In this document: piece after piece, positions 2,418 through 52,566 of the stretch
How positions within the stretch are numbered: the stretch's first letter is position 1
How the letters are laid out: the number at the start of each line of letters is the position of its first letter
Source of the DNA: Trichoplax sp. H2
Taxonomy: Eukaryota
Length of the DNA: 64,000 bases
Reading direction: 5' to 3'
Assembly (NCBI GenBank): GCA_003344405.1
Contig: NOWV01000180.1
Span: forward strand, 1-64,000
The notes under the pieces: model-generated
Seen by the model: the letters and a program-made list of their open reading frames with translations, nothing else
What the model was told of the DNA's origin: nothing
Databases searched by the model: none
Program-made: the position numbers and the translations under genes

Positions 2418-2427
2418 TTTAACTTTA

Positions 2428-3095
2428 ATAGTCTTGTAATTTTGTTATCAACAGCAATTTCAATCTACGTTTCGATCACTGCACTCTGTAAGATATCATA
2501 GGCGTATGCATTAGTGAATACTAATTATATTACAATAATGAGCACTGTACAGTATTAATCGATTCAATCGAAGTATTACTGTTGAAATTTGGCAATGTTA
2601 TGGTCAGAATCAATTGCAATCGACGTTTCAATCGCTACAGTCTACATACCTAGTGTGCAGCGATTGAAACGTAAATTGTAATTGCTCTCCACTATAAAAC
2701 TGCAAAACTACGAGTGTACTGTACTAGTCTGGTTTGATAATAATTGAATAGTGAATGATGAATAGATCAGATACCTTTGGGAGTGATTGAAATGTCGATT
2801 CAAACTGCTCTTGATTACAATAATCTTTCAATCTATTAATGCATTACTACAGATTTGATATGCATGTACAATGTCCATTGACTGTATGACGTCTTGTGCT
2901 GAAGACATCATATGCGTATGTTAGTTCATATACGAGTATGTACAGTATAGTAATAATAATTATTAATTCATTATGCAAAATTCAATCCAAATTTCAATCG
3001 TTTTGTACGCTTACATACTGTACAGTAGGTATTTAATCTACAGTAGTACACCGGTAGTTTTGCAATTTTGAATCAAGAGCCATTCCAATCTACTG
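2428..3095. repeat. Cluster of degenerate ~58-bp repeats in both orientations, including a long inverted pair
   Basis: Unit ~GTAGTTTTGCAATTTT..AGCAATTNCAATCTACGTTTCAATCGCTGCAC at ~2428-2485 (+), ~2580-2640 (+), ~2654-2711 (-), ~2779-2825 (-) and ~3053-3095 (+, partial). Confidence 0.65.
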
Positions 3096-7142: not shown

Positions 7143-10100
7143 TCATACAACCTTTAACCGAGGCGGTGAAGCTACTAATTCTCGAGTAGTTTGGTCCAAT
7201 AATTTATACTCATCTAACAACGAATTTAGAGATTCTATGCTATTATCAAACGTAGCCATTTCCATTCCATCGACCTCTAGATAATGATGAAGATGCGCCT
7301 GCAAATTTCGAATATGATTTACAAGATTAACGTACATGTATTATAGCATGACGCTACACTACTAGCGAGTTAGACTGACAAATAGCAATCGATGAAGCTT
7401 TCAAGGACAATACCTTGCGTTTATACAATTTCACAAATCTATGTTGAATATCAGAGAACGTGTCTTTGATACACGTATTATTTGATAATGTTAAGAGAGA
7501 ATAAGGCTAATATAAAAGCAAAAGTATTAGTGTTTTTGTGAAAGATCCAAATGATCCTGATTGATAATTATATAATTTACCAATGATACTTACATGACCG
7601 ACCGGAGGAACTGAGCATAGTCCAGTTTTCCACCCATCTTCGTTCCAGTGAATAAAATTAAGAGAAGGTCTAATCCTATCGATTATATATAATGAAAATA
7701 AGGAGAATTATCTAGTCAATTGAAGATTATTACAATGTCATAAAAGACAATACTGTACTGACGGGTGCATAGATAAAAGATTTACTGTTTACCTCTTAAT
7801 ATTCCGCCTTATATCTGATATTTCCACTTTTCCACGGACTAGAAGGGCACAAGACAAGTATCTAATTTTATTAATATGATGAATGTTAGTAAGAAGGGAT
7901 TTTGATGATATCAGTGCAGATTAAGATTTAGGAGGAGAACAAAAAAGGTTTACAGATTGCGTTTTGGGTCGGCTTTTATCAACTGATAGTCTTTTGAGAA
8001 TGCGTCAGAGAACATTTCATCAAGTCTGTAATACAGAATTATGTAAAGGAGCAGTATGAGTATGATCAATTATACTGTGTATACTCGTGAAAAGCAAATG
8101 ATTTCCGCAGGAGTACCTTCGAGTTGATAAATTTACATCGGCTAAAGCATACAGAGGGGTCATGCTGGAAATCAAATAATGTAAACGTGGAAACGGGACC
8201 AAGTTCATAGTAATTTCGTTTAAATCGACATTTAAAGAACCTTCAAACCTTGAAGAACTGATGTGATTATAAAGGCAAATACAATGAGCAATGCCAGTAC
8301 TGTTATGTTAATGATCATGTCGGCTACATTATCTTACCTTGTCATATTTAGTAGTAAATTAGCTACGATATTATTCATGCCATCAAAAGGGCGTGCTTGT
8401 GAACTTTTGGTTTTTCCTCCATGGCTATTAGTAATAGTGCTTTCGGATTTAATTTGCTTTTTACTTATCCCTCTACTAGCTGTAGCAGTTACGTTACTAA
8501 TTCTATTGCAAATATCTATTAATGACTGCAAGACATGAAATAGGCTATTAGATTAAAGATTAAAGTTAGATAATTCTTAAATAAGGCAGACCTGGTTATC
8601 TATTGGCATTACACAATCTGCATTGTCTGTTAACTCCTTCATAGCTAAGATGCTATTGTAAGGAGAAGTTATAACATCATCTTCGATAGAAGGGTATACT
8701 GCTGTCACGAAACTAAAAATTAACAAATATCTCAAGATCAGCACCAAAATTATGTTACGGCATGGATTATATTCAGTCTGTTGAACAATATAAAATGGGA
8801 AAGATATTTAATGCATACGATAAATATGATAACATTTGCACTACCGATATACGTTTGGGTAATCATCTTGAAGAATATTTAATATTGCTGTACCAACTCC
8901 AGATCCAGTTCCTTAAATAAATATTTGAGAAAGCATCGATAATTATTATAGCTGAAACTTGACCTAAATTTTAAACGATTGTAGTATGTTGCATAACTAT
9001 ACCCCCTCCCATCGAATGGATCATAAAAAACGTCTGCAAATAGTCACATTTTTCTGCTGCCCTTCTAAGAACTTCAACTAATTTATCTCGATATTGATTA
9101 CCGTAGAAGAGGTGGCCGATAGACCTATAAGTAAGCAAGAGATTAGCAGAATGTAAGGTGCTATATTACAATTTCGTGTGATTGTTGTAAGCGAGGTAAA
9201 ACATGGCGTAAAAATTTCAATCAACTATATCCTACCAGTTGTTTCCAGATCCGGAAACATCAGTTATTAACTGCTTATGATCGAAGATATCTCTTAGCGG
9301 ACTATTTAGTAATTCATTAACTACGCCTTCTTCCATATCGACCAAAACTGCCTACAATACCGAATTATCATTTCAAGTTAATTTTTGGGAAAGTCCAGTA
9401 GATAAATGGATTTTATGCTAGATGATGGATTGTCTAAGCAATAGCTTACTCTGGCTTTTAGCGTTTTAATTTTTGTCCTGCCGTTACCGACCTCAACATC
9501 GAGAGGATCTTCATACCTTATACAGTAATATAGGTGATGATTTATTATGATTCATTCAGGTAAGTTGCTTAACAGTTGAAGATCGGTTAAGTTGAGAATT
9601 AATTAGTATTGCAATAGTTTATCAACCTGTTATCAACGTTACGAAAGAAGCTGCTGTAAGGTTCATCGAAGAATCCTTCCTTCAGTAGCATAATTTATGT
9701 TAAGTAAAAAGATTCATTAGGATATTATAGTTCTATAAATTTTGAATGGCTTGTTCAATCGCATACGTATCATTGCATACACATAAAATGCGTATGCCAA
9801 ATTCTACAGTAAGTAAAATAAGTAATTAATGTGTTGCTAACCTTATTGATGGCAGCATGTTCCCTTAGAGCTAAATCCCAAAATCTACAGCCAATCTTTT
9901 AAAAATAAAGTGTTACATGTAAATCAATCGAAAATAGTGATAGCAAATCATACGTGTTTACTGATTTACGCGTATGCTCCACACGATTTAACTCAACGCT
10001 AATCTAGATATTGTTATAGTCATAAATTCAATCTTCATACAGCATAGATGCGGACGACAACATTACTTTTTACTTACAACATTGCTGATTTTGCAAATTT

Positions 10101-11170: not shown

Positions 11171-12006
11171 TTTCAAAATTTCATTTAATAAAAAAATTGC
11201 TATGAAATGGTTTTAATAGTGTTTAAAGCATGAGTTCAATCTCTATACAAATATTACTAATTTTCAATTTCATTTCATATGACTTACAGTATTTATAACC
11301 GTAAAAGGTATAAACCATTCGAAATAATATTGAGTTCATATTTCGAATAACATATTCCATCCCTTACAAGGCAAGCACGTCTTGTTGGCCATATCAATCA
11401 TAATTTGGACATATTTTACAGTCAATAAAAATAGTTCAAATAGTGTACGAGTAAATACCATAACTTAAGAATTTTGCTCCTTGATTCGCTGTGAGGATAC
11501 GCAATGTTAATAACTCTACGTAAGTTTCATGATTAAATATACGCGTATATGCATTTAGAATATCAGAATTTCATTTCATAACTTATGATGATACTGCAAA
11601 ATGATGCCATACCGTATCGGCAAATGAGTAGAAGAAAGCAAAGTGTAGTTAAAACTATAAGTATTGTATATTGCATAATTCCATACTAGTATCAAAAATA
11701 ATGCTTGATATCTCCTGAATATTAGTGTACTCGTAAATAATGTACGTATATACTAGATTGGGCGTATAGACTGATCAAAAAGTTATTGATAAACTTTCAA
11801 TCGGGAAATGTATTAACATAACCACCAGTATACAGGTATAATACAGTTTACTCGTTTGCTCGTTTGTTCGATAGCACGTTATTTCTGCCCTTCCTGTACT
11901 TTCGTTGCTTTACTCTATATAGCGCTACTTCTTAATGCACAGTATATATACCATAACAATATTTAATATGATGTGATATTTATTAAATTCGAATAGGAAA
12001 ATAGCA

Positions 12007-12597
12007 ATGACGTCCGATTCTATTGCTAGAAGAAGCGGTAATAATAAACGCAGGAATATCTATAAGAGTAGGAGCTCGTACGTGGATGAAAGCCTCTTCG
12101 ATTCAGCAAATAAGAGTGTCAGTTTTCATGAAGTTAAGTTTGATCCACCTTGGATTAAAAACAATTCAAATCGAGAACTTGCAGCCAATTCGCTTGCTTG
12201 GAATAAAGGCAAGGCCGGAAATGATAAGAAATCAGATCGCGAAAGAGTAAGGCCAGATAGTCGAAACTTAAAACGACCGTATCGTAAACAAGTGTTTAAA
12301 TCATCATTTACTGATGATTCCTTATTTGGTGATCCGCTGATTGCACAAGAACAGTCCATGAGAGAATTACCTCCGTGGGGCAAAAAAGAAAAAGGCAAAT
12401 ATATGAAGCCCTTACTATGGGATCCTGATCCGTCAAATATACGAATTGAAGGATCTAGGTCGTCTCGCGATGCGCGCAGACCGGATTCTGTCTCAGGTTC
12501 ATTTTCCTATTCCAGAAGCAGCACGCGTACTGCGACGTATGGAGTTTCATCAGCTAGAAGACCACAATCAGCAACTGTTCGACCACCATGGAGATAG
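12007..12597 (+). CDS. RITA1: RBPJ-interacting and tubulin-associated protein (RITA), 196 aa, single coding exon
   Basis: Hallmark motifs in the expected order: SYVDESLF, FDPPW, SFTDDSLFG, RAM-like LLWDP, C-terminal RPPWR. Confidence 0.9.
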   Translation: MTSDSIARRSGNNKRRNIYKSRSSYVDESLFDSANKSVSFHEVKFDPPWIKNNSNRELAANSLAWNKGKAGNDKKSDRERVRPDSRNLKRPYRKQVFKSSFTDDSLFGDPLIAQEQSMRELPPWGKKEKGKYMKPLLWDPDPSNIRIEGSRSSRDARRPDSVSGSFSYSRSSTRTATYGVSSARRPQSATVRPPWR

Positions 12598-13733: not shown

Positions 13734-16286
13734 CTACGTAGAAATAAACGGGACATCTTCAGTAATATCAGGCATTAGAGCATCCAATTCTTCTAAAAAT
13801 TGAGTATTAGCGGTCATGATACTATTGCCATGGTTGCTGACAGCAGGCGTATTTGCTAGTGAATCTGGCAAACTTGAAAATCCACTATCTGCGGGGCTGA
13901 CCTGGCTAGTACTGTAAGTCGTATCGTCTGTATCACATCTTGCATGGGTAATTAAATTATTATCACTTGCGTTTTCATCACAGTCAGATGATTTACACAT
14001 TAAAGTCGGGTTCACTGTATCTTGTGCAATCCGTCCTTGTGTAGACTTTTCTTTAAGTATTTCATCTAACATTTTCGCAGGTAGATCTGTAACGGGTATA
14101 TTTTCTCGTGACATGCGTGCTAAAGGATTGCGGTCTAAAATTCTTAATAGAGACGGGCCTTTTTTACCAGTGCTACTATCTGTGCATGATTTCTTGTTTA
14201 GTTGATCCGGTATTCCAGCAACGTACGGCTTATATCTAATAGTGCTAATAGGAGCTTTTGGTAACTTCCTTTTATTGGTTTCGATTACTGTGGCTATCTT
14301 GTTATCTTTTTGATAATCTTGATGTTCCGTATCATTCTTTACGTCTTTAGATAGGCCAGTTAAGTTATTTGATTTGTAGTTTTGGTTAATGAAATTACGA
14401 TCATAAGTAACATCCTGATAGTTAGGCTGGTTATTTGTATGGCCTCGATTCTGCATTATATGTAGACCATACGATAAAAATGTATCTTTGTTATAGCTGA
14501 CGTTTCGACAAACATCATCCTTTTCCTTTTGTGGTTCATCAGTATTAACGAGTTTATCTAGATCAGAAATTTCAGGATAGCCATTCAAATTATCGTAGGA
14601 GGAGCAATCTATTGATGTAGAACTATAATGACCGTTTACACTTTCTTCCCTGTTACTAGATTTGATAATATCCTGGCAGGAATCTTTGTCTACTGTAGTT
14701 TCCAATCTCGAAGTAGCATGATTTTTAGTCGCTATATTAGCTATATTTGATTCTTCTGTGGACAAAGTTTTAGAAGGTTTCTTTTTTTCTATATCTGACA
14801 AAGTACTCTCGGTCGCGTAAATAGCTAATTTTGTATTGTCAGACACAAATGTACTCGAATCTTCTTTTTCGTGCCATTGCATAGTATTAATCTTGAAAGA
14901 AAAAATGCATAAAAGGCAATATGTTAAAATTACAAGTATTACTATATACCCTTAAAAGTAAGATTCTGGGTTGTGTGTTCAATTTCTCCCATCTAACGGG
15001 ATCTTATGGAGGCGTACGAAGTATTTACCTGGCAATTTTCCGTTTTATGTGCTAGACATCGGTCAAAAAATTTCGTTCCGAAAGGAAATGTGCACTGAAG
15101 AAGCATAAAATAAGTTAGTTAAGTTATCACTGTTATCTGTTAATGAAAAATGTGTAGTTCGTATTAATTACTAGTAAATCGTGCAGATCAGGCCAATTTA
15201 CATAGGTATATGTTAATAATTATAATTATCGATGGACGACAAAGCGTATCTATTATATTATCAAGGGTGAAATGTTCTACGCAGGTAAATATTGTTATTC
15301 CTATTTGATACACAGGTATTCTGCGAAAAAAAAGGGTCAAAACTGTAAATGTACAGCGTAATGTAGATCATCATTCTAAGCATAAGTTGCAAGTAACGAT
15401 GCTGTTTCAGGTTATGCTACGATCATTGGAGGGACTACTACAGTATTACTAATTCAATGTTTAATAGTCATAGTGATGCCGTGCTATAGCAGACCGAGCA
15501 GCAGTTAAATAACTTAATTATAGCACTGCCCTAGGATACGCTATCGTCTGGCAGCGTTACTAATGTATTTCGAAGGATTAATACAGTCAATAATACACCA
15601 TGTCAATCAGATCAGGATTACTCTGTGTTTACTATGCCAGTCCATATTGCGCACTATAATTTATCAACATGTACAGTGTTATGTCTAGTCTACAAGTGTT
15701 CAGCTTTTCGGAAGCCTACAATAAGATACAAGCATACAGTATATCACTGTCTCATTTTACCATTATAGCATTCTAAAATTTTAGTATAGGGTAAAATGGC
15801 AGCATCTAATATACACCTTGCTGATGAATTTCTATGAAATGATTTTCACTCAGTAATTAATATACTGCTTTTTTAAAGAAAGATACGCAGCGTTGTCTAT
15901 CTAAAGTGTATTTTGCTTATACAGTATGCCAAAACTGTGCTTTATAATCAATCATTGAGCGAATTTATTCAGTGTGATACGGCATCAACGTTGGTTGTAG
16001 TATGGAAATTATGATATAAAATCAGTACTATGTTTTCGACTGGAGGAACTGGTCGGACTGCTGACGTAGTATCTCCTCCATTCTTACACGTATTACTGTC
16101 AACGCACGCGGATAACGAATGGTAGGTAATCAGCTAATGAAGACGAGCCTATTGGACACAATGTCCAATGATACTAACCTCAGTCGATTGGCAAAGTAAT
16201 ATTTTTCTTTCCAAGTCAAGAGATTGCCATTGCAGATGTCTCGTTTTACCTTTCGACAAGCACAGCGGACACCGATCACGATCCAT
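13734..16286 (-). CDS. USPL1-N-terminus (DUF4650-like CxxC...CxxxxC) protein with a long disordered tail, ~443 aa
   Basis: Exons 16286-16179, 15094-15029 and 14891-13734 join by phase-0 GT-AG introns: MDRDRCPLCLSKGKTRHLQWQSLDLERKILLCQSTE-CTFPFG resembles recalled human USPL1 CPACREKGK...IFLCEDLQCIYPLG. An upstream in-frame ATG exists at 16301. Confidence 0.7.
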
Positions 16287-17095: not shown

Positions 17096-18787
17096 ATCAA
17101 GTTCTATATCGGTTCACAGTCGGATCTAAGTCCGGTTTAGATCGTTCAGGTTCTGAACCAAACGAAATGGACGGTTTCGATTCCAACCGTTTATGGAGGA
17201 TAAAGAACCGAACCGCCAGTCCCAGTGTAGTTCTGAACTAGTGCGACCACAGTGCGTCTCCGAATCGAACGAAAGGGCACAACTCAGTCTGTAGTCTGTA
17301 CGTGTACTACGCCAAGGACTACTAGAAGAATACCATCTAGTCGTCCATGACTACGCGCAACACTGGTACACGCCAGTATTCTTGTACAATGCTGTTTTAC
17401 AGCACAGCGCACACGCAATCGTACTGTACAATTTATATCACATGATCACGGTCTGTTTTGAGTAGAACTTCAACTCATGATGACGTTATTTAAAACGATA
17501 AATGGTCCTTGAATGGGGTCTGAGGTCCGTCTATCCTGAATCAGAGTACAGTTTGTTTTTCATTTCTTTTTTACAAAATCGGCTTTATTAGAAGCAATTA
17601 AAGCATACTATCCCAGTTTAGATTTGAAATTTCGACTGTAATAGCAGCGGTCTAAAATGTGTAATAATTACGAAAAGTGAAAAAAAAAATTGAAATTGAC
17701 ATTTCTATGCTGTCTGTAGGTCTTGTTCAGGTAGGATTTCGCCTGAGTTGATGTACCAAAGTAGACCAATATGAGTTCATCATTACCTGGCAATTTTCTC
17801 AGCTACATCATTCATACATCGATATTATATATTTTAAAAGATCACATTGCAATATTATTACTATACATAAATTATTATAGATAGATGCGTAAAGAATAAA
17901 AACAACAAAAGATTAGACAATATTCCATCAAATTATACTGTATTTGATACCGCGATTATCCAATATTACTTTTTTTGGTTGATATTGATTACGTATAAAG
18001 TCGCAATAATAAATCCTGGAATATGAAAAATACTAATACTGTCCAACGCTATAAAATCTATAAATGACATCTTACACATATTTTCCGATTACAATTGCGC
18101 TACTTGATACGCACAACGTCATACATAAAGTATTGCCATTGACACGAGTGATTTTACCTATTAAATTTAAACAACTTGAAACATGGGTTTTTACTTGAAT
18201 ATGGTATCTCCATCCTCATCATTATAAAGGGCATAGGATGCTGAGGTGATTGATGAGGTTGGTATTCATTCACGGAATCATAATACACCATTCAATTGAT
18301 TTGATTATATATAAATTATAGCGGTAAGCAGTAAACAGTCAAGCCTATGATGGTTAATTAATGATTCAGAACAACATTTTACACGCAATATATCACTAAA
18401 TAAATCTGTATTAGTATATAAATATCTTTTAGCTTCAGTAAAAAGAAACATCACAATTCAAAGGTAAAAGTAATTACATATTAAATCGAAGGCATAGTAA
18501 TTGATATACCGCTGCTCGATCATAAAGCAGGTATCATTATTATCGAATAACATTTTCTTACCAGATAGAAATACTATCAATTTTTAAAAAATTATTATTA
18601 ATTAGTAGGTATCATCAGATCGCAGTAAAGTAGCCAGTATTTGAGAAAGTGTAATGAATCAATTAATATAATCTTCAAGTCAATGATTTCAAACAAATAT
18701 CGCATCCTTTAAATAATACGTATTTTAACCGCGGCAAATGTGACATGTAAATGTTGAACAAAATCTCTAAAAATCAATTAATTTAAT

Positions 18788-21700
18788 TTAATTAGATGCA
18801 ATGTCGTCATTTGATTTGTCCTGAATCACTTCTATTTGTTTAATTGATCGTAATTTATCGACATCTTCATACGGTTCTTCTTCCTTAATACCCATTCCAA
18901 AAGTTTCTATATCCTCTACCTTTACTACATTATTCTCTAAATCGTCATTGGTGATATTTGCTGGCATAGTTACTAATGACGAAATCTTCTTTTTTATTAT
19001 AGCATATCCACTGCTATCGATATCTTTCAAAGAATAGGATATTTTTTTGGCAGTAGCTGTGGTAGCTGAGTTCTCAGGGTTGTCTGTAAAAGGAGAAGCA
19101 CCAGGCGCTAATTTATTTTCTAGTGTTTTGCTCTGGATACTCTGACTTAGTGCTAAATCATCTTCTGCCCAGGGCGATCTTGGAGGATACGGAGAAGAAA
19201 CCGACCTTGGATTCAAAGTCTTGGAGCGACCAACTCTTCCTCTGTATGTACTAGATTCTTCCATTAGTTTGCTTACGCTGGTAGTCGAACAGTCGATCGA
19301 TATCGGACGCGTCTTAATTATTTGAGCATATATAACATCTGGATTTTTAATACGAGGAATATCGGGTAGCTTTCTGTTCGCTATACTAGAGTTATTTACG
19401 GGTTGTTCTCCGGTAATAGGTGCTGATCGATTTGGCTTCGCAACAGGGTTAGTAACGGTACTGGTATTTTCACTAGGGGTAGCATCTTTGAACTGCAGTT
19501 CTTCATAAACGCGAGGTGCAGTAATCATTATTGAATTTTTAACATTGGAATCACTGGATAATTTTTCGTCGCTACTGTTGGCATTTTCTGAGGCTTCGGT
19601 AGTTTTTTCCACAGAATCCTTACTTGACATTGTGGAGCTGACGTTTGCGTAAGGAGATTCTATAGAGTTGGTTTTGTCTTGAGTTGACACAGAAATTGTT
19701 GTTTCTTGATCAGAATTGGAGGCCGGGGACTGAGTAGGATAGTCATCATCCAGAATATCTGTTTCTTTCAATACTGATGACTTATCGGAATTATTGGCTT
19801 CTTTTTGATTGCTCGTCATAGCTGGCGGTGAGTCAACTGCAGCAGTGGCTGTTGCTCTATCAGATTCTAAAACTGTTCAAAAAGTTATAAAATTACTCTG
19901 AGCAGGCACGACTATAGAATGAAACAATGAAATAGCGCGAGGCTAGTAAACCTGGTGCATTCGACTTTGATTTCAATTTTGGCCTACTTTGTGAACTTGA
20001 ACTAGGTTTTGATACTTGAGGTGGAATGGAATCACTAGTAACCGTGGACTTTGTAGTTTTGTCATTACTGCTTTCGGGTTGCTAAATGTAGGAATATTTT
20101 ATAAATAGCTTAGCGAATATTATATATTCAGGAATGTTAGCTAAGGTAATACAGTTATTTGTGGTAATTCTTTGTAGTAAACAGTACACACCTTTCTGCT
20201 AGTATCACTTGCTGTAGTTTTTTCCACGTCCTTGTCGCTGTTACATAGGTATACATATACGAATGAGTGCGTTAGAAGATATAATACATCTTAGCTTGTA
20301 TATTCTAATTTGACAATTTGTTTAATTGTACGTAATACGAATTAAAAATATCGTTACTTTAAGATTTTACTTATAAATTATTCAAAAAAATCATGTATAC
20401 ATTACCTTCCAATAATGCTTACCTTGGTGACAATTGAGAATCTTGAGATTTACTGGTGTTACGGGCACATAGGAATCCAACAACGATAGTAACAATCATT
20501 ACCATGATACTGGTTGCAATTATTGTCCAGTAGCTATTAAATAAACCATATGGATGATCATCATCTCCCATTAAGGCGTGGATACTTCTTTTTGCTAGCA
20601 TGTGACCATTGTCTGCTGATGAATGTGTAGACGAGGCTGGTGTTTAATATGATTACCGCTTTCATAGTACAACATAGTTTAATGAATTTATAACACTACG
20701 ATATCGTATAATGCTGCAGTAACAACATTAGTCCTTAGCAATCAAATATTGTTGAACTTTGTAATTAATCTGACTTCACAATATCTACTGCAGGGTGTAC
20801 GAAACTTTACAATACGAATTTAAAGCTCATAGACTGAAGGCTGGACTGCATATACTTTACTGTTTTGTCTTTCTAAGCTTCTAATAATGACAATAAGTAT
20901 ATATGCGTGTGATAAGATATTCAATACCCGTATACTGTATGTTTACCTTGGTATTCTTTGATTACATTAATGTTGCAATAATAGAAGCGACCGCAACGTA
21001 GTTGTGTCTTATGCACTAAGGTAGCAAGCTTTTCTATTGTCTTCGGATTGGAATACTGCGCGACCGCCAGATATAATCGCTTAAAGGAAGAAATATACAT
21101 ATCATGATACATTAGAAATACGTAGTGGTATATAGAAAAATTAAATTAAGATATCAATTCTTGAAGATCTATAATACTACGGCTACAGCCCAAATTTCTA
21201 AGTTACTACCAGATATTATTCGTATATTATATGATAGCCCTACAGTACTGTACTGTACAGTATATTACGAAATTATCGTGTAATAACTGACTATTGAAGT
21301 TACGATTTGTACGCCAGATAGGGTTAGAGAATTACAAGTTATGGCTTACAACTCACAATTATATCATTGGTGTATGGTTTTACTTATATTTCAAGTATTG
21401 CAATAGATTCTATCATGTCTACTGCTGCTTATAACTATAAGAATAATATTAGCATCAACAATTCTAATGTAAGCGCAAATCATCGAAAATCGGGATATTT
21501 TTTTTAATTAACATTTTACCGTGTGTTTGCGAAAGCTTTTTTGTTGTATGGTAAGTCTTTTGTTAGGGTTTTGAAGTATTTGTTGTAGTCATATATTGTA
21601 TTGTACGTAATTATAAAGCTGTGCTACTAGATTTGAGATATTTATGAATAGTAGTATGAAGCAGTGGTAATATTTTCAACGTTATTATGCGTTACTGTCT

Positions 21701-22788
21701 GTTTATACGTACAAATAAGCTGAACGCCTTAGGATGGTTATCCATGGACTACTCAGTTCTGGAATTGAGTAATCCAAGGCTAAACCTTACGGTATCTATT
21801 AATGGCGATTTACTTATACAGCTTTGCCAACTTAAATCTCATGAATGCATGAACGAAGTGTACCGCTATTTCGGTGATCTAAATGACAGATTGATGGAAG
21901 TTTGTCGTACGAATGTAAAGTAGCAGTCAATAACACTAAGCTTCCGTGGCTTTGATTGTGGTATAAATGATATTTAAATCATCAATTAGAAAGGTACTTT
22001 GTACCTAAAGTATCATTACAGAACCAAGAGTAAGTTAACTATGAGATTAAGGAAACTTTAGATGGTACACCATAAGCGGAATGTGAAAAGGTTTGAGTTT
22101 GGTGAATGAATTTACTGGCTAAGCATCGAGTGAAGAGCCACTAAAGCGGCCCCCCCCCAAATTAGTCTAGTTTTTTATTATAAAAGGTATAAAAGGTTCA
22201 AATACCTACTGTAGTTTTTATACATCAATACGTTGTCTCGATGATAATTGAATATTTAGCTTACAAGATACAAATTTACGATAGATGTCTAGTGTGCAGT
22301 GCACGCACGGCTACAATAGGCAACGTTTAAGTAGGACTGTCAACTAGTATTATTAAATTACATTTTTTACATCCAGCAAGACAATATCAGTGTCTAATCA
22401 AACTTGCAGTAACTACGTTCAATATGTAGCATTGTATACTGTAGATTTACGAAGTAATAGTTTAATTAATCATTTGGCTTACTTGATGCGTAGGTAGCAA
22501 ATATAGGCGAGAATCGGGTAGTAAACTTGAATCGTGTAGAAGACTGCATGATCGTCCAACGAGAGAGGTGAATGACTGATCTTCAGCGGAAACTATTTCG
22601 CCCAGTACAACGTGATGGTCCAGACTGTGGCGGAAGCTAGGGCTGCTACCTTGATCGTGGATCCGTGAATCTGGTAATCGTATTAGTTTACATTGTCGTG
22701 AATCAGTTAAATTACAGAACAGAACCAAAATGATGGTGATTATTACACTACTGAAAGTAATTCGCTTCGATTGATATCTTAACCACAT
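18788..22788 (-). CDS. Type I single-pass membrane protein with a Tyr-motif-rich disordered tail (PAG1/Cbp-like adaptor), 637 aa, 6 exons
   Basis: Exons 22788-22483, 21079-20947, 20636-20423, 20237-20192, 20081-19952 and 19872-18788; all GT-AG, phases 0,1,2,0,1 consistent, total 1914 nt. Signal peptide, TM WTIIATSIMVMIVTIVVGFLC, tail motifs YANV, YEEL, YAQI, YAII, YEDV. Confidence 0.8.
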
Positions 22789-23564
22789 TCGTTCCTCCTT
22801 TTTCTTATCTTATATACTGTACTGTATATATATAAGTAATGATAATGCTATTATAGATAGTAATGGAGCTTTCTATTCATTTTCGTGCTGCATTTTAGTA
22901 ACAGCAGATGAAGATGGCGCAAACGTCAAGATTAGGCTAAGGGGGAAAATATGGTAGGATTTGACTTGACGGTGGAAACTGAAAGTTGTACGGTAAATAA
23001 AGTACGTTCAAGTAAGATTTCAATTTTGGGGAGTAATTAAATAGTCAAAAATGTAGAGAATATTCTGTTACTTAGCCAGGCTTGATGATTGTTCTATACT
23101 ACTCGTAAGTGGAAGTACGGTATGTCTTTACAAGCTGCTGCATGACATGGCATCCAGTTTACTGCATCACTATAGAACCAGAACAGACCGTCAGTTAGTA
23201 AGTACGACATACATACAGACAGACATGGTCTTTCAATCCCATATGTCACTTCGGTCAGACAATGCTGCTAGGGTTTTTGCCACTGTCGATATGGCTTCAG
23301 CTTGTGACATTGTTTTTGCTAGAAGTGTATTGTGTACTATGCTCATCTATTAAAAAGGATGTCATCGTATACCACAGTACTTTACATTGTGTACTGTAGG
23401 GACGTTAGTGTTTAGTACTGTAATTCCTGCAGCACAGTGCTATACTGTACCATACACACTGTTATAGTACTGCGCTATGACCTTAGGCTAGAAATCGCAC
23501 TTCTGCATCTAGCTCTGTTTGAACTGTTCATCGCGTGCAAGACGTATCCTCGTGCAAATAGAAC

Positions 23565-26500
23565 ATGGCGGCGACTGTAACTCCTTTAGCAGTGAGTGGA
23601 GAAAGGACAAGTGGCGCAAATATTCGTTCTCAGAATGGTAATTGCCATAGTTATAGGGAATGATATAAATTGTGTAATTTTTAGATGAATCTACTGAATT
23701 ACTAGCTAACATGATATAGATATTCATTAACTATAAGTAACGCCGTCAACAGCGATAGAGATACGCGTAGAATCGGAGAGCGGCACTCGTAGATGGACAG
23801 TATGTACTCGTCATGACTACAGTTATTAGTGAACATAAATGAAGAGAAATTGATCATGTAGATATTAGTATCTGTCTACTATTTTTTAATATGACAAACA
23901 AGCGGTTGGAATCGATTATACTGGCTGTATCGATAGTAATTGAGTACTTGAGTACGGCTCCAGAGAAAACTGAAGCTTGACGCTAACGTACAGTAGATTT
24001 GGACTCTGAACAAGTGGATTTTGATGATAGCAGCGTTGGAAATTTGAATGAATCATACAGCATAATGATACGTATAGCCAGTCTTGTAACTACTATTCTA
24101 CTGCGGGAATGATTATTCCACATGCAGCAATTCTTAAAATCCTAGCTACCTAGATCTGCGATTATGTTTTATGTATGGACATATCGCCGTATATGAGATA
24201 GGATCTCGCCATTGCCGTAGTTATTGCAAGTCATTGCCAGCTGTTCGTTACGGCATTTCCTTAGGTATTTGTAATTGGATCAAATACAATTAAACTCATA
24301 AAGTATCAAGACTGCTCTACTCGACAAAAACGGTTTATGCGTCTTACCTAATTATGATTAGAAAAATGCTGTAGATATAGACGCTATTCCTAGTTTGTTA
24401 ATGCTGAAGTATTGTTGAAGAGTAACGTTCGAAGAAATGTCTAATTGAATCGTTCCATCAAGCACTTCCATCGTATATAGTACATACAGTATACTGTGTG
24501 TGACTACAATACAACCTTCTGACTGTAGTCATTACGTTGAACCGGCATGTTTCTGTATAGGAATTGATTTGAACGTGGAGTATTTCTCGTTGCACCATAA
24601 GAGAATAATCTACCTTACGACCTAATACCGTTGCTTTACTTAAAAAATGCAGTACTATTATTATAAATGAATTGCTGTAATACGCTCTGTAACAAATTTG
24701 GAATAGTTAATTATTACAGAATTTCTACTGCCATGTTCTGATTTACTGTGGTTATGGCTGTAGACTGATACAGTGAAAAAGTAGTAAAATTCGTAAAATA
24801 CTTCTTGGACTGTCTCAAAGTATTGGGAGTAATATTTGGATTGAATACTGTAGCATGTTTTGTGCCAAGGAAAACCTTTCAGTTCTTGTACAGTATATTA
24901 GTATAACTTGTTATTTACGCATTGAAGTATACACGTATATCATCATCAATTTTGTTTATACCAACATCATTACCTCAGGTGAGGCAGTCATTACCAATTT
25001 CTGTGTGGAAGTATAACGACGCAACTATTGGATTATCCTAAAATGTTTATGCAGAAACAAAATGTTGTATTGACTAATTAGAGTAATTGGAACCCGTATA
25101 AAATTTCTAAATAGTAATTATAATTGTCTATTTGATCGTCTTAGTTACCGCTGCGCTTTCGATTGCCAATATTGTCAAGAGTTCATTAGGACCAGTAGGC
25201 TTGGACAAGATGCTAGTTGATGAAGTCGGAGATGTAACAATAACTAACGATGGTGCTACCGTATTAAAAATGTTAGAAGTTGAGCATCCAGCGGCAAAGA
25301 TTCTTGTAGAGCTTGCAGATTTGCAAGATCAAGAAGTTGGAGATGGAACTACATCAGTGGTAATACTAATAGCATTTTACGTCATAAAGTATTCCATACT
25401 AAATCGTGTGATATTTAGTTGGTGTTCTTTATTGTAACTTGAATTCTTTTAGGTAATTGTCGCCGCTGAACTTTTAAAAAATGCTGAACAATTAGTTAAG
25501 AACAAGATTCATCCGACTTCTATAATTAGTGGCTATAGGCTTGCTTGCAAGTAAGTATCAGAAACGTATTCATAATACAATGTTGCTATTGTGCGATTAA
25601 AGTTTATTTTTATACTTTCCAGGGAAGCTTGCAAGTATATTAACGAACATCTTAGCGTATCAGTAGAAGAATTAGGAAGTGAATGTCTTATAAACGCCGC
25701 TAAAACATCCATGTCATCTAAACTAATTGGAATGTACGGGCTGACATAAATTCATGCTCAGTAAAATCATTATTTTTTTTAGTTTACAATGTGTACATAT
25801 AGATATCGTATAGATATATACGGCAGTAAGGAATTGTGTTAGTCACCGATAGGGATTTTGTAAGCTAAAAGTAAAATATAATTAGATAATGTATCGTTGT
25901 CTTATACTGTACTGTAAATTAGTCAAGTAAGTTTTGTTCAGTAAGAATTATTTTGAAAGTTATTTTGGTATTATTGATAATAGCAAAGGACGATCGGTAT
26001 CGTAATCCTCTATAACTTTTGCATGATAGGGATTCGGATTTTTTTTCTAAAATGGTTGTCGATGCTGCTCTAGCTGTTAAGAGGACGAATGCAAAAGGAG
26101 AAATCCGATGTCCTATTAAAGCTGTAAATATCCTTAAAGCACATGGACAGAGTTCCCTGGAAAGCGAATTAGTTCGCGGTTATGCCCTCAATTGTACAGT
26201 GGCATCTCAAGGTAATTGCGAAATAATGACCCATTAATTAATACTGTACTTGTTTATTAATGAGTATTTCTATTCTATTGGGTAGCTATGACCAAAAAGG
26301 TTGTAAAAGCAAAAATAGCTTGCCTGGATTTTAGTTTACAAAAGGTTAAAATGAAATTAGGTGTGCACGTTATTGTAGATGATCCCCAAAAGTTGGACGC
26401 TATACGTAAACGGTCCGTGAAATAATACCATTTAATAAGTAGCGTACTGTTAAAACTGCGAAAATTTGTAATTTTTGCAATATTATTGATCTATCATTAA

Positions 26501-27735
26501 TTATCGTAGGGAGTCCGATATCACGAAAGAAAGAATCACTAAGATATTAAAAACTGGAGCAAATGTTGTTCTTTGTACTGGTGGAATTGATGATTTGTGT
26601 CTGAAATATTTCGTCGAAGCTAAAGCTATGGCTGTACGACGTGTAACTAAGATTGATATGAAGCGTATAGCAAAAGCAACAGGAGGTATATAACATGATT
26701 GGTCGTATTGATAATTCAGAACAGAAAGTAATTTATAGAATAAATTTGAATCATTGTACTGGAAGTTAAAGTGATATAAGCATGTCTTGATTTATGCAGC
26801 AACCATGTTGTTGACGCTCGCTAACCTTGATGGTGAGGAAAGCTTTGAAGCGTCCATGCTTGGTGAAGCTGGTGAAGTTGTCCAAGATAAGATTTGTGAT
26901 GATGAACTTATTGTTATCAAAGAGTAAGATGAACTTATATTGAAGTGTAATTGTTATTTATTAATTATTAATGGTTAGTACTAAATATAAATCGATATAT
27001 CTATTGCATAGGCCAAAGTCTCGTATGGCTGCTTCTATGATCCTTCGAGGAGCGAACGATTTCATGCTAGACGAAATGGACAGGTCGATTCATGATGCCT
27101 TGTGTGTCGTTCGGCGCGTAATTGAATCGAATGCTGTAGTTCCTGGTGGTGGGGCTGTTGAGGCGGCTTTATCGATATACTTAGAAAATTTCGCTACTTC
27201 ACTGGTGAGCGGTTAATGATTCACTTATGACTCTATGATAGTAAAATTAATACCTATTCATTACAATTTATATTGAATAGAGTTCCAGGGAACAACTCGC
27301 TATTGCGGAATTTGCTAGATCCCTATTGGTTATACCGAAAACGTTGAGTGTTAACGCGGCTCAAGATGCAACTGAACTTGTAGCAAAGTTAAGAGCATGC
27401 CACAGTAGCTCGCAAACGGATTCTAAGCTTGCAAGTCTTAAATGGTATTTTGCATTGTTTACTTATATGACGTTTAAGTTATATTAAGCAATATTTGCTA
27501 ATTGTAAGTATTTTCTATCCAAAGGATGGGTTTGGATTTGGTTGATGGGATAATTAGAGATAACAAAGGTGCTGGTGTTTTAGAACCAACTATCAGTAAA
27601 ACTAAGAGTTTAAAGTTTGCCACTGAAGCTGCTATTACTATACTACGAATCGATGATATGATTAAACTTTATCCTGATGAAAAACCAGATGCAGGCCAAT
27701 CGTATCAAGATGCCGTTGCATCAGGACGTCTTTAA
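23565..27735 (+). CDS. TCP1: T-complex protein 1 subunit alpha (CCT1)
   Basis: Exon 1 (23565-23637) [24 protein letters not shown]; exon 2 from 25145 [20 protein letters not shown]...[11 protein letters not shown]; later [44 protein letters not shown]. Confidence 0.97.
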
Positions 27736-32300: not shown

Positions 32301-33590
32301 TGTAGTGATATAGTAACCTACTAGATATTCCGTGAAATTATGTCTTAGCATTTGAACTATTATTAAGGATTTTTTGTCCAATGAACTAATTTTAGGTTGC
32401 TGGTAACTTTCACTTCGCTCCTGGGAAGAGTTTCCAACAGCATCGTGTTCATGGTAACGCTTGACTTCATAGTTTGGCAATTTACACATAGCTTCCATGA
32501 CAAGTATTGATTTGTAAGATAAACTTTTTCTTTTACTTAATTTAGTACATGATTTGCAGTCATTTGGATCACGCAAGGTAATGTGAAAGTAAATTAGTCT
32601 GCCTTTTTTGCTAGTAATGTATTTTTGAGTTCTAATGAATTGCTGATCTTACTCTTATTTGGACCCACTACGTACATAAAACTAGTTTAATACGTCTCAT
32701 ACCATTCACAAATTGTCATTTGGAGAGGAATTTCCTGGAATTATAAATCCATTAGATGGCCATCGAATGTCTTCTGATCAAGGTAAACCATGAAAGTCTT
32801 TATTATCGCTAATACTATTTATTAATGAGAATAAATTCTTTAGATTCAGCTATGTACCAATACTTTATTAAAGTCGTTCCGACCGTTTATAAAAAGTTAA
32901 AAGGCGAGGTAAAATCTATTCAAACTTATGCTTTCTTAGCTTACGGTTTGATTACTTATTCTGGAAAGAATTTCTTTTAATTAGGAAGTCAAAAGCAACC
33001 AGTACTCAGTAACCAAGCATTTGAAGTATATTAAACTTAGTATGGGTGAGCAAGGTCTTCCAGGCGTCTTTATTTCGTATGAACTTTCTCCCATGATAAT
33101 CCGGTATGCCGAAAGAAGAAAGTAAGTGCGATAAACTTATTTGCTAAGATCAAATTATAGATTGTACGTATTACGGTAGACAGAATTGCTCAACTTGGCA
33201 TTAATTGTCTAGAGCACATATTATATATTGAATGATTGCTATAGTCAAGCACTAACAGCAGTACTCGTATATTGGATATTGTTCAATACTTGTTTGATTT
33301 AGTTATATTTATACTTATGGGGATCCATTACATTGTTTTAGGTCTTTCGCTCATTTTTTAACTGGTGTCTGCGCAATTATCGGTGGTGTATTCACAGGTA
33401 TTCACTAAGAATCTATAATTGTAATTTTGCTGCTTAATAACTTATAACTCGATTGTATCATGATTTATTATGTAAGTATTAAACGTATAAATTATCGCTT
33501 TTTCTTTCAATTACAGTTGCCAGCTTGATTGATGCTATGGTATATCATTCTGCGAAGATGTTAAAGATTGAGTTAGGAAAAGCATCATAG
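29348..33590 (+). CDS. ERGIC3: ER-Golgi intermediate compartment protein 3 (Erv46 orthologue), multi-exon
   Basis: MSSKSVLTSLRRYDAFPKTLEDFRIRTFGGA; CGSCYGAE..CCNSCEDVREAYRKKGW; EGCNVFGYLEVNKVAGNFHFAPGKSF; YFIKVVPT; PGVFISYELSP; HFLTGVCAIIGGVFTVA; ends KIELGKAS*. Confidence 0.96.
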
Positions 33591-35529: not shown

Positions 35530-36273
35530 TCACTGCTGCATCGCTTCTTGGTATTGGGAAGTCAACGATTCAACGGGTATATCCATGAGATCAGAAACAA
35601 GCCGGAGAATTTCCATTTTGTCTACTTCTACTCGCGATCGCTGACCCCAGGAGTATTCGATGATAAATTCACCATTGACAAGTTCTTTAGTACGATGTAA
35701 ATACATGGTTTTTACAAACTGATCAATCTTTTTGGAGATGTCACCAAATACATAATGAGGTTTACGTTTATCAAATTCAAGGAGGGCTTGCAGCTTATCT
35801 ACTAAATCGGTTTCTTTCATCGTGCCTCCTATCATAAAGATGATGGCTAATATGATTGTCAACAGTCCATATTCTTCAATATGATCGGTGCTATTAATGA
35901 TATTTTGGTTTTCCGTTGGCAAAGTGTTACGCAGAAAATAGCGATTTTCAGCAGAAGTTTTGGTTTTTTCCTTGATGGATTCGTCGCCTTGATCACGAGA
36001 TATAGCCACTACTTCTACACCAAAAACTTTCAACAGTTCGTCTTTCGCTAACGTCATGACTTTATCGAAATATTTTTTATAATCGAAAAGCACATCCTTT
36101 AAAATATCTGATCTTTTAATTGGAGTTCGATTACACTGTTTAAATAGAAAGTAGCGAACTAGCTCCGTGGATAATGTTGACAAGTCAGCATTTGAATTTT
36201 GTGATTGGATTGCCATACCTTGGCTTGAAGTCGGGGTATTGGAGTCATCGACATCCATTGGTTCATCAGCCAT
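35530..36273 (-). CDS. NSMCE3: MAGE-homology-domain protein (NSE3/MAGEG1-like SMC5/6 subunit), 247 aa, intronless CDS
   Basis: ELVRYFLFKQCNRTPIKRSDILK, A..EL.KVFG, GLLTIILAIIF, HYVFGD, FVKTMYL, EYSWGQRSRVEVDKMEILRLV are MAGE winged-helix motifs. Confidence 0.9.
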   Translation of the reverse strand: MADEPMDVDDSNTPTSSQGMAIQSQNSNADLSTLSTELVRYFLFKQCNRTPIKRSDILKDVLFDYKKYFDKVMTLAKDELLKVFGVEVVAISRDQGDESIKEKTKTSAENRYFLRNTLPTENQNIINSTDHIEEYGLLTIILAIIFMIGGTMKETDLVDKLQALLEFDKRKPHYVFGDISKKIDQFVKTMYLHRTKELVNGEFIIEYSWGQRSRVEVDKMEILRLVSDLMDIPVESLTSQYQEAMQQ

Positions 36274-36542
36274 TTCGATCAGGAATGTTCGATTATCGTG
36301 TCGTGTACTTGTATATTTACAAAGGCGTATGGGATTGCCAATTCCACAGTAGCTTTACTTCAGTTAAGAGGATATCTTCCAATACAGTAATCAATGATGG
36401 AGATGTCAGTTTAAAACTAGATGACCTAGACTACAGGTAAGCAACTGGAAAGATGGCGGTATACCTGGATTTCGCGTATTAATGTCTGTTTGCTTTCGTT
36501 TCAGCCGTAGCACAGGTTGGTTGGCGCCTTGGCGGGCAGGTG

Positions 36543-38629: not shown

Positions 38630-48294
<9,665 letters not shown>

Positions 48295-52328: not shown

Positions 52329-52566
52329 AATACACGTCTTAATATTTTATACTGTATTAATAACATATATTTTTTTTAATCTCTTTCTTGATAAAGCCTA
52401 TCTATGTAGATATTTACAGTAATCTCGATATCTTGTTTGTTAAATATGAAACAAATGCTGAATATTTTAAAATGATTAAATGGGATTGCTAACAAACAGG
52501 ATTGTTGAAGTGGGCTGTTTGATGAGCGTCAAGCGTCAAATGATAGCCGCCAGACTTTACACTTAC

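What the first reader, a model, noticed from the sequence alone, without database searches (positions are those of the whole stretch)
18788..22788. PAG1/Cbp-like transmembrane adaptor with an extra, possibly cleavable ectodomain
Seen: four disconnected ORF-track fragments plus two small exons splice into one 637-aa protein. It has a signal peptide, a ~150-aa ectodomain with 4 Cys, a dibasic AKR|S site ~20 aa before the TM, a juxtamembrane Cys (GFLCAR) and ~430 disordered residues with YANV, YEEL, RKLPDIP, VIYAQI, GYAII, EEEPYEDV. Recalled: vertebrate PAG1 has FLCSSC, YEEV followed by RELPRIP, YASV/YSSV/YATV and EPEPDYEAI, with only a tiny ectodomain, and recruits Csk to inhibit Src kinases. 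Inference: an ancestral Src/Csk scaffold that is receptor-like; cleavage at KR, or an internal start at MLAK/MGDD, would yield the classic short-ectodomain adaptor. Human PAG1 lies on 8q with RPL30, TRIB1 and ASAP1, whose homologues are neighbours here.
Basis: partly seen in the sequence, partly recalled or inferred. Interest (0 to 1): 0.75.

Follow-up and report, generated by a model that had tools for sequence, protein, structure and literature searches.

The report
Placozoan membrane protein with phosphotyrosine-docking tail
This is a real, transcribed six-exon Trichoplax gene for a single-pass membrane protein whose long floppy tail carries conserved docking motifs of the kind that Src-type kinases use, but no test run here shows that it is related to the vertebrate adaptor PAG1.

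Summary
The gene is real. RNA contigs from three runs in two studies carry all five splice junctions, and one contig spans every exon. The exon-3 acceptor lies 21 nt further on (20615, not 20636), so the product is 630 aa, not 637. It is identical to the annotated hypothetical protein TrispH2_008552 of Trichoplax sp. H2.

The layout is an N-terminal hydrophobic signal, a ~140-aa ectodomain with 4 Cys, a TM helix (173-201) ending in one Cys, and a ~430-aa disordered tail.

Two partial relatives at 51-60% identity conserve six tyrosine motifs and a class-I SH3 ligand (RKLPDIP). Three other tyrosines are not conserved.

No homology to PAG1 was detected. Pfam, including its PAG, LIME1 and SCIMP models, gave nothing at E<=10. 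An exhaustive phmmer of the tail exon against 1.84 billion proteins found only two relatives and two repeat proteins.

My best reading is a placozoan-restricted, receptor-like phosphotyrosine/SH3 scaffold that works like PAG1, SIT or LIME. Orthology to PAG1 is possible but unsupported (about 0.12). Cleavage at KR and an internal start remain untested. The ectodomain fold is unknown (pLDDT 38).

The parts
22789..23080 (-). 5' UTR (minimum extent), with two tiny uORFs starting at 22893 and 22880
   Evidence: X8 record 20 runs without a break from exon 1 to 23080, where sequencing adapter follows. uATGs listed.
22483..22788 (-). Exon 1 (aa 1-102): start codon, hydrophobic signal/anchor (aa 10-24, 22717-22761), first part of the ectodomain with Cys33 and Cys81
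   Evidence: In-frame stop lies just upstream. Donor GTAAGC. Joint 21079|22483 in 3 of 3 RNA runs.
20947..21079 (-). Exon 2 (aa 103-146 plus 1 nt): ectodomain with Cys131 and Cys137
   Evidence: Joints 21079|22483 and 20615|20947 in X5, X7 and X8.
20423..20615 (-). Exon 3: end of the ectodomain with K154-R155 (20590-20595), TM helix aa 173-201 (20452-20538), Cys196 (20467-20469). The true acceptor is at 20615, not 20636.
   Evidence: Joint 20615|20947 in 3 of 3 RNA runs. Hydropathy. AF2 helix 168-201, the only stretch with block-mean pLDDT above 70. Coordinates.
20192..20237 (-). Exon 4 (46 nt), tail
   Evidence: Joints 20237|20423 and 20081|20192 in 3 of 3 RNA runs.
19952..20081 (-). Exon 5 (130 nt), Ser/Thr/Lys-rich tail
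   Evidence: Joints 20081|20192 and 19872|19952 in 3 of 3 RNA runs.
18788..19872 (-). Exon 6 (aa 270-630 plus stop): disordered tail with all the Tyr and SH3 motifs
   Evidence: Continuous in the RNA contigs. pLDDT below 50 almost throughout. 51-60% identical ORFs in two related organisms.
19640..19657 (-). SPYANV (Y344), conserved as SPYANI in P0006
19490..19510 (-). VYEELQF (Y392), identical in P0006; a Src-family SH2-type motif
   Evidence: The YEEI/V motif type is named in the review section read.
19313..19378 (-). Most conserved island (aa 435-456): class-I SH3 ligand RKLPDIP (19355-19375) followed by VIYAQII (Y451)
   Evidence: 10/10 and 9/10 identities to P0006 in the blocks starting at aa 435 and 445. 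20 of these 22 positions are invariant in all 4 sequences of A1.
18995..19039 (-). SYSLK..DSSGYAI[IV] island (Y549, Y559)
   Evidence: Conserved in P0006 and P0002.
18854..18883 (-). Acidic EEEPYEDVDK (Y604)
   Evidence: EEPYEDVDK is invariant in all 4 sequences.

Best explanation
The gene encodes a 630-aa single-pass membrane protein so far seen only in placozoans. An N-terminal hydrophobic signal puts about 140 residues with four Cys outside the cell. One TM helix, ending in a single Cys, anchors a ~430-residue disordered cytoplasmic tail.

I read the tail as a phosphotyrosine/SH3 docking scaffold. A Src-family kinase docks through its SH3 domain on RKLPDIP and phosphorylates nearby tyrosines. 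pYEEL and pYEDV then hold Src-type SH2 domains. The three pY-A-x-[VI] sites (YANV, YAQI, YAII) recruit negative regulators or adaptors of the Csk, SHP or Grb2 type.

So it works like the vertebrate transmembrane adaptors (PAG1/Cbp, SIT, LIME) but in a receptor-like format. It is most likely an independent invention, or diverged beyond recognition, and cannot be shown to be a PAG1 family member.

Shown here: transcript structure, topology elements, disorder, motif presence and motif conservation. Inferred: phosphorylation, the binding partners, and the inhibitory logic.
For: - Transcript: all 5 joints are present in 3 of 3 RNA runs from 2 studies, and one contig spans all the exons. The model equals P0005.
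- Topology: two hydrophobic windows only, aa 7-30 and 173-201. The TM helix is the only confident AF2 element; mean pLDDT is 38 and 573 of 630 residues are below 50. The ESM Atlas model has pLDDT 0.42.
- Motif conservation: at 52% (P0006) and 59% (P0002) overall identity, Y344, Y392, Y451, Y549, Y559, Y604 and RKLPDIP are kept wherever a relative covers them. Y314 is lost, Y479 becomes F in P0002, and Y498 becomes H in both.
- Windows of -3..+4 around all nine tail Tyr are 50/72 identical to P0006, against 126/274 elsewhere (Fisher p=5e-4).
- 5 of 9 tail Tyr are Yxx[ILV] (137/20000 shuffles reach this). RxLPx[ILVP]P occurs in 9/20000 shuffles.
- Strain polymorphisms: 9 of 11 SNPs in the tail exon change a residue, yet none hits a conserved Tyr, its +1..+3 positions, or RKLPDIP.
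- Whole-protein language-model neighbours include four transmembrane-adaptor clusters (LIME1/PAG 0.80, SCIMP 0.79, PAG 0.78, LIME1 0.77) and two viral membrane adaptors (pox A36R, HCMV UL135). This is a lead only.
- The review section read describes Cbp as using exactly this logic: Src-SH2 motifs plus a Csk-SH2 motif on one membrane scaffold.
Against: - There is no experimental or proteomic evidence of phosphorylation or binding. The SH2 and SH3 specificities I use are recalled consensus rules, and such short motifs are degenerate.
- Yxx[ILV] is also the clathrin-adaptor sorting signal.
- The atlas scores (0.83 or less) are in the range that shuffled proteins reach a third of the time. The tail alone gave no usable hit.
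- Only two partial relatives exist, both covering tail sequence only, so conservation of the ectodomain is unknown. Exon 1 found nothing but P0005.
- I did not verify here that Trichoplax has Src and Csk. That is recalled; the review passages seen state that Csk and SFKs are conserved from choanoflagellates to humans.
Confidence: 0.55

Rival explanations
1. True orthologue of vertebrate PAG1/Cbp: an ancestral Src-Csk scaffold that still carries an ectodomain which vertebrates later lost.
For: - The general plan is the same: TM, a juxtamembrane Cys, a domain-free tail with nine Tyr, a Src-SH2 type motif (YEEL) upstream of an RxLPxIP SH3 ligand, and pY-A-x-V/I sites resembling the Csk site type YSSV named.
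- PAG-containing clusters appear among the 30 language-model neighbours.
- An ArfGap+ANK gene and a kinase-domain gene lie 23-30 kb away. If these are ASAP and TRIB, they share human 8q with PAG1.
Against: - The Pfam PAG model gives no hit at E<=10 for P0005, P0001, P0002 or the single exons.
- Exhaustive phmmer of the tail exon finds 4 proteins at E<=0.001: two relatives and two repeat proteins, none vertebrate.
- The profile of A1 finds nothing in the PDB.
- The tail-only atlas query finds nothing.
- The TM is not N-terminal, and there is one Cys rather than two palmitoylation sites.
- Neighbours such as PAF-AH, RITA, MAGE, CCT, tubulin and ECH have human counterparts on many chromosomes (recalled), so the synteny is at best of the chromosome-arm kind.
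- Short linear motifs arise convergently.
Confidence: 0.12
2. A trafficking membrane protein or cargo receptor. The Yxx[ILV] motifs and the acidic EEEPYEDVD cluster are clathrin-adaptor or PACS-type sorting signals, and the ectodomain, possibly processed at KR, is the functional part.
For: - Five conserved Yxx[ILV] motifs and an acidic cluster sit in the cytosolic tail of a membrane protein.
- A dibasic KR lies in the ectodomain 18 residues before the TM.
- All 4 SNPs in exons 1-3 are synonymous, against 2 of 11 in the tail exon.
Against: - Sorting signals usually sit in short tails near the membrane; here the motifs are spread over 430 disordered residues.
- The best conserved island is an SH3-type ligand fused to a Tyr motif, which sorting does not explain.
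- LAKR|S lacks the Arg at P4 of the furin consensus (a recalled rule).
- Only one of the 4 synonymous SNPs lies in the ectodomain proper (codon 39).
Confidence: 0.13
3. The conserved tail islands serve some other, unknown partner and not SH2/SH3 signalling. The resemblance to tyrosine-kinase docking motifs is coincidental, in a lineage-specific orphan membrane protein.
For: - No family assignment by any method.
- Other islands without Tyr are also conserved, for example aa 485-510 around NPRS..SSP.PPR..W.EDD (8/10, 7/10 and 7/10 identities).
- Motif consensus rules are permissive.
Against: Motif enrichment and selective conservation are both seen: all five Yxx[ILV] tyrosines are conserved, whereas only one of the four other tail tyrosines (Y549) is kept in every relative. 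RxLPxIP matches the Src-type class-I ligand closely (9/20000 shuffles).
Confidence: 0.15

Closest known systems
PAG1/Cbp (vertebrate Csk-binding transmembrane adaptor; Pfam PF15347)
   Same: A single-pass membrane protein with a Cys at the cytosolic end of the TM and a long tail with no folded domain. The tail has nine Tyr, including a Src-SH2 type motif and Csk-type pY-[A/S]-x-V candidates. The feedback logic of Cbp is described in the review section read.
   Different: There is no detectable sequence similarity. The TM follows a ~140-aa ectodomain instead of sitting at the N-terminus. It has one Cys instead of two palmitoylation sites. It has one YEEL plus one YEDV, against four YEEI/V motifs. 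The C-terminus (..DIASN) is not a class-I PDZ ligand (recalled rule). Binding of Csk is untested.
Other transmembrane adaptor proteins that bind Csk, SHP2 or Grb2 (SIT1, LIME1, SCIMP)
   Same: The motif repertoire combines a YxN site, ITIM-like [SV]xYxx[I] sites and pY-A-x-V/I sites on one small membrane scaffold. LIME and SIT1 are listed as membrane anchors of Csk. LIME1 and SCIMP clusters appear among the language-model neighbours.
   Different: Those proteins are short (about 150-300 aa), have minimal ectodomains and are known only from vertebrates (recalled). No Pfam model of them matches.
Scaffolding receptors with a real ectodomain (for example CD6)
   Same: A substantial ectodomain is combined with a long tail that assembles a signalosome. 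The abstract listed (PMC11127300) contrasts CD6 with LAT and PAG on exactly this point.
   Different: CD6 has recognisable SRCR domains and a known ligand. Here the ectodomain matches no family and gave no confident fold.
Viral membrane adaptors (vaccinia A36R, HCMV UL135)
   Same: They appear among the language-model neighbours at 0.79-0.80. They are membrane-anchored disordered tails that recruit host SH2 and SH3 proteins (recalled).
   Different: The scores are at noise level, there is no sequence similarity, and the topology and origin differ.

Membership tests
PAG1/Cbp (PF15347) | Significant match to the family's sequence profile | tested here: not met
   hmmscan against Pfam-A at E<=10 found no PAG hit for the five exon translations, nor for P0005, P0001 or P0002. 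HMMER's filters drop most matches above about 0.1, so a very weak similarity could be hidden.
PAG1/Cbp (PF15347) | Detectable homologues in vertebrates or other animals by sequence search | tested here: not met
   phmmer of the 361-aa tail exon against 1,835,955,588 representatives gave 4 hits at E<=0.001: P0001, P0002 and two tandem-repeat proteins. Word-seeded searches gave P0005, P0001, P0006 and P0002 only. Only the tail exon and exon 1 were used as queries.
PAG1/Cbp (PF15347) | Single TM at the N-terminus, with a very short extracellular part (review) | tested here: not met
   The TM is at aa 173-201, preceded by a signal-like segment and about 140 residues. RNA contigs join exons 1-2 to the TM exon.
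PAG1/Cbp (PF15347) | Two palmitoylation Cys just C-terminal to the TM (review) | tested here: not met
   Only Cys196 lies at the TM end. The next Cys is 464. Palmitoylation itself cannot be tested here.
PAG1/Cbp (PF15347) | Several Src-SH2 motifs (YEEI/V) plus one Csk-SH2 site (YSSV) (review) | tested here: inconclusive
   The tail has one YEEL and one YEDV, and three pY-A-x-[VI] candidates (YANV, YAQI, YAII), all conserved in relatives. Fit to the Csk SH2 domain is judged from a recalled consensus only.
PAG1/Cbp (PF15347) | Binds Csk when phosphorylated and thereby inhibits Src-family kinases | not testable with these tools
   Needs biochemistry.
PAG1/Cbp (PF15347) | Conserved linkage with the PAG1 region | tested here: inconclusive
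   ArfGap+ANK and kinase-domain genes are present. No RPL30-type family was found among the ORFs scanned. Human positions are recalled. The other neighbours point elsewhere.
Transmembrane adaptor proteins (a functional class, not a homologous family) | Single pass, no folded cytoplasmic domain, multiple Tyr motifs for SH2 proteins | tested here: met
   One internal TM. Tail pLDDT is below 50. There are nine Tyr, five of them Yxx[ILV] and six conserved. This is met at the level of sequence features only.
Transmembrane adaptor proteins (a functional class, not a homologous family) | Very short extracellular part (recalled definition) | tested here: not met
   The ectodomain is about 140 aa and is encoded by exons 1-3 of the same transcript.
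ITIM-bearing inhibitory receptors (motif class) | [S/I/V/L]-x-Y-x-x-[I/V/L] in the cytoplasmic tail of a receptor with an ectodomain (recalled consensus) | tested here: met
   VIYAQI (Y451) and SGYAI[IV] (Y559) fit the consensus and are conserved in P0006 and P0002. Recruitment of a phosphatase is untested.

The most novel reading that the evidence does not exclude
Membrane scaffolds of the Cbp/PAG type, which bring a Src-family kinase and its negative regulator Csk together, predate bilaterians and began as receptors with a ligand-binding or sheddable ectodomain. This placozoan protein would be a surviving example, and the vertebrate 'ectodomain-less' adaptors would be truncated descendants.
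Probability: 0.12. Interest if true: 0.7.

Novelty: new variant of a known kind. Interest (0 to 1): 0.35.

Why it matters
Csk and Src-family kinases are conserved from choanoflagellates to humans (review passages). The membrane anchors that bring Csk to Src, however, are known mainly from vertebrates. A placozoan membrane protein with a conserved Src-type SH3 ligand, a pYEEL site and Csk/SHP-type sites is a concrete, testable candidate for how early animals wired this feedback loop. If it binds Csk or an SHP phosphatase, it would show either deep ancestry or convergent invention of transmembrane adaptors outside the vertebrate immune system. Practically, the work also corrects the older T. adhaerens gene model. 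As it stands the case is a motif-based prediction on an already annotated hypothetical protein, so the interest is moderate.

Tried and rejected
All three RNA runs use 20615. Contigs drop rare variants, so minor use of 20636 is not excluded.
- Pfam on the exons and on P0005, P0001 and P0002 gave nothing meaningful. The only hits were sub-threshold matches over the TM segment and one in P0002 (DUF1378, E 0.095).
- PDB sequence searches with P0005 and with the A1 profile gave 0 hits at E<=10.
- AF2 of the whole protein gave pLDDT 38.0, and of ectodomain residues 31-171 alone 38.6. Both were too poor for a fold search. The beta-alpha-beta-beta-alpha-beta pattern in the ectodomain is at pLDDT below 50 and I make no claim from it.
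- Atlas structure matches had TM 0.14-0.23 and are meaningless.
- Exon 1 against proteins of similar length found nothing. Against longer proteins it found only P0005. So there is no evidence either way on ectodomain conservation.
- The metagenome-contig scan with A1 matched 244 pattern stretches, none confirmed.
- The genome search 'own': no genome is held for this window.
- Earlier findings of this scan: none by place or by sequence.
- Paper searches for TRIADDRAFT_58428 and TrispH2_008552 found 0 papers. Supplements, where single-cell atlases would list the gene, were not searched.
- Searches for Csk-binding protein with Trichoplax or choanoflagellate, and for the evolution of transmembrane adaptors, turned up no report of a non-vertebrate Cbp/PAG.
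- The neighbouring 405-aa ORF (13737-14951, -) is not a paralogue; the best BLASTP E-value is 4.6.
- The RPL30 neighbour was not found in the ORF subsets scanned. Small exons elsewhere in the window were not scanned, so this is no proof of absence.
- Low RNA-contig cover over introns 1 and 2 is not interpreted.
- Complex prediction was not used, because no partner sequence from Trichoplax was at hand.
Full report
**1. What is there**

On the minus strand between 18788 and 22788 lie six open segments with GT..AG borders. I laid Logan contigs of four public runs on 18000-23600.

- Three RNA-type runs (X5 and X7 of study P3, on record as RNA; X8 of study P5, RNA by guess) each carry five joints with CT..AC ends, which are GT..AG on the minus strand: 19872|19952, 20081|20192, 20237|20423, 20615|20947 and 21079|22483.
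- X8 record 20 (2247 nt) runs from 18757 to 23080 through all five joints. Exons 1 and 2 are therefore on the same transcript as the TM and tail exons.
- X1 covers the introns at even depth and shows none of these joints, as DNA would.
That removes seven residues.
- The corrected product has 630 aa. It is identical to P0005, 'hypothetical protein TrispH2_008552 [Trichoplax sp. H2]'.
- All three RNA runs also carry an in-frame 12-nt insertion behind 19561, which adds four residues.

**2. The older annotation**

P0001, 'TRIADDRAFT_58428 [Trichoplax adhaerens]' (428 aa), starts at the internal MGDD. It also skips 42 residues inside the last exon, including YEEL. Given the RNA contigs, I read this as a truncated gene model with a false intron, not as evidence for a short isoform.

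**3. Anatomy** (numbering of the 630-aa protein)

- There are only two hydrophobic windows, aa 7-30 and 173-201.
- Between them lie about 140 residues with Cys33, 81, 131 and 137. Cys25 sits in the signal region. There is one NxT site at N26, and K154-R155-S lies 18 residues before the TM.
- The TM ends in GFLC196AR.
- The remaining ~430 residues are 17% Ser, with Thr, Lys, Asp, Pro and Asn the next most frequent.
- AF2 gives a mean pLDDT of 38, with 573 of 630 residues below 50. Only the TM helix reaches block-mean pLDDT above 70. The ESM Atlas's own model has pLDDT 0.42.
- Folding the ectodomain alone gave pLDDT 38.6. I therefore make no fold claim and ran no fold search.
- Whether the N-terminal segment is cleaved was not tested, because no signal-peptide predictor was available.

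**4. Relatives**

- An exhaustive phmmer of the 361-aa tail exon against 1.84 billion representatives gave four hits at E<=0.001. They were P0001, a 206-aa fragment P0002 (about 60% identity), and two tandem-repeat proteins that match through repeats and composition.
- A word-seeded search added P0006 (372 aa, 51% identity). This is an ORF over the last exon of a related organism.
- Exon 1 found only P0005.
- Pfam gave no family at E<=10, which includes its PAG, LIME1 and SCIMP models.
- The PDB gave nothing with the sequence or with the profile. A metagenome scan found nothing.
- So the protein is known only from placozoan-type sequences. Nothing can be said about conservation of the ectodomain.

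**5. The tail carries conserved short motifs**

- In alignment A1 these motifs are kept wherever a relative covers them: SPYAN[VI] (Y344), VYEELQFKD (Y392), NRKLPDIPRIKNPDxIYAQIIK (436-456), SYSLK (Y549), SSGYAI[IV] (Y559) and EEPYEDVDK (Y604).
- Y314 is lost, Y479 is Phe in P0002, and Y498 is His in both relatives.
- Windows of -3..+4 around all nine tail tyrosines are 50/72 identical to P0006, against 126/274 for the rest (Fisher p=5e-4). A first version of this test used only the conserved tyrosines and is circular; I do not rely on it.
- Five of the nine tail Tyr are Yxx[ILV]; 137 of 20000 composition-preserving shuffles reach that. RxLPx[ILVP]P arises in 9 of 20000 shuffles.
- Among strain differences seen, 9 of 11 in the tail exon change a residue. 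None touches a conserved Tyr, its +1..+3 positions, or RKLPDIP. All 4 in exons 1-3 are synonymous. The numbers are small.

**6. Mechanism (inferred)**

- By recalled consensus rules, RKLPDIP is a class-I SH3 ligand of the Src type. YEEL and YEDV resemble Src-family SH2 sites; the review section read names YEEI/V as the typical Src SH2 motif.
- YANV, YAQI and YAII fit the pY-[A/S/T]-x-[V/I] type, of which the Cbp Csk site YSSV is an example. YANV also fits the Grb2 YxN type. VIYAQI and SGYAII fit the ITIM consensus.
- The most economical reading is this. A Src-family kinase docks by its SH3 domain and phosphorylates the tail. The tail then holds both the kinase (by SH2) and a negative regulator such as Csk or an SHP phosphatase. 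This is the feedback logic described for Cbp.
- The ectodomain would make the scaffold responsive to something outside the cell, as in scaffolding receptors such as CD6 (abstract listed).
- None of the binding steps is shown.

**7. Is it PAG1?**

The membership tests fail or are inconclusive.

- There is no profile match and no vertebrate hit.
- The TM is not at the N-terminus.
- There is one Cys rather than two.
- There is one YEEL where Cbp has four YEEI/V motifs.
- The language-model search of the whole protein did list four transmembrane-adaptor clusters (LIME1/PAG, SCIMP, PAG, LIME1) and two viral membrane adaptors among 30 neighbours. Their scores were 0.77-0.80, a range that shuffled proteins reach a third of the time according to the tool.
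- The tail alone gave no usable named hit. The resemblance therefore lies in the architecture (a TM plus a disordered, motif-bearing tail), not in tail sequence.

On synteny, an ArfGap+ANK gene and a kinase-domain gene are neighbours. I did not resolve them as ASAP or Tribbles, and I did not find RPL30 in what I scanned. The other neighbours are PAF-AH, tubulin, RITA, CCT, an ERV-type gene, MAGE and an enoyl-CoA hydratase. Their human counterparts lie on many chromosomes (recalled). I put orthology at about 0.12.

**8. Rivals**

- A trafficking receptor whose Yxx[ILV] motifs and acidic cluster are sorting signals (0.13).
- An orphan membrane protein whose islands serve unknown partners (0.15).
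- True PAG1 orthology (0.12).

**9. Verdict**

The interpretation as a PAG1/Cbp homologue is not supported. The functional analogy, a receptor-like phosphotyrosine/SH3 scaffold, is reasonable and testable. The gene is already annotated as a hypothetical protein, and no paper held in the library names it (supplements not searched).

Noticed in passing
window 18788-20615 (-), compared with P0001: The T. adhaerens gene model TRIADDRAFT_58428 (P0001, 428 aa) starts at the internal MGDD, so it lacks exons 1-2 and part of exon 3. It also splices out 42 residues of the last exon, including YEEL. RNA contigs show the last exon as continuous.
   Followed up: yes
window 19561 (-, codon 374): An in-frame 12-nt insertion adding four residues is present in all three RNA-type runs (X5, X7, X8) but absent from the window. 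X1 has no cover there. It looks like a strain indel in the disordered tail.
   Followed up: partly
window 22874-22893 and 22851-22880 (-): Two tiny upstream ORFs (6 and 9 codons) lie in the 5' UTR of the gene.
   Followed up: no
window 21240-21266 and 22815-22835: Short ACAGTA-rich repeats. Contigs of all four runs break here with loose ends, depth jumps (184 in the bin 21179-21365; 495 at 22815-22823 in X1), and X1 shows spurious joints 21264|22815 and 21266|23300. This looks like a short repeat dispersed in the genome.
   Followed up: no
window 13737-14951 (-): A 405-aa open frame with no Pfam family. It is Ser/Thr/Asn-rich and also contains an RKLPKAP motif. It is unrelated to the finding by BLASTP (best E 4.6).
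   Followed up: partly
window 45541-46746 (+) and 50448-52346 (-): An ArfGap+ankyrin gene lies next to a protein-kinase-domain gene. If these are ASAP and Tribbles, their adjacency would mirror the recalled closeness of TRIB1-ASAP1 and TRIB2-ASAP2 in human. The subtypes were not tested.
   Followed up: partly
window 1-2444 (-), 7510-9165 (-), 11977-12597 (+), 25111-27732 (+), 32813-32977 (+), 35530-36354 (-), 59778-61412 (-): Other genes recognised by Pfam on exon-sized ORFs: PAF acetylhydrolase, a tubulin, RITA, a CCT/TCP-1 chaperonin subunit, an ERV/ERGIC-type protein, a MAGE-domain protein and an enoyl-CoA hydratase.
   Followed up: no
window 18788-22788 (-): Strain SNPs: 4 of 4 in exons 1-3 are synonymous, while 9 of 11 in the tail exon change a residue. 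This fits a constrained ectodomain and TM and a fast-evolving tail outside its motifs, but the numbers are small.
   Followed up: partly
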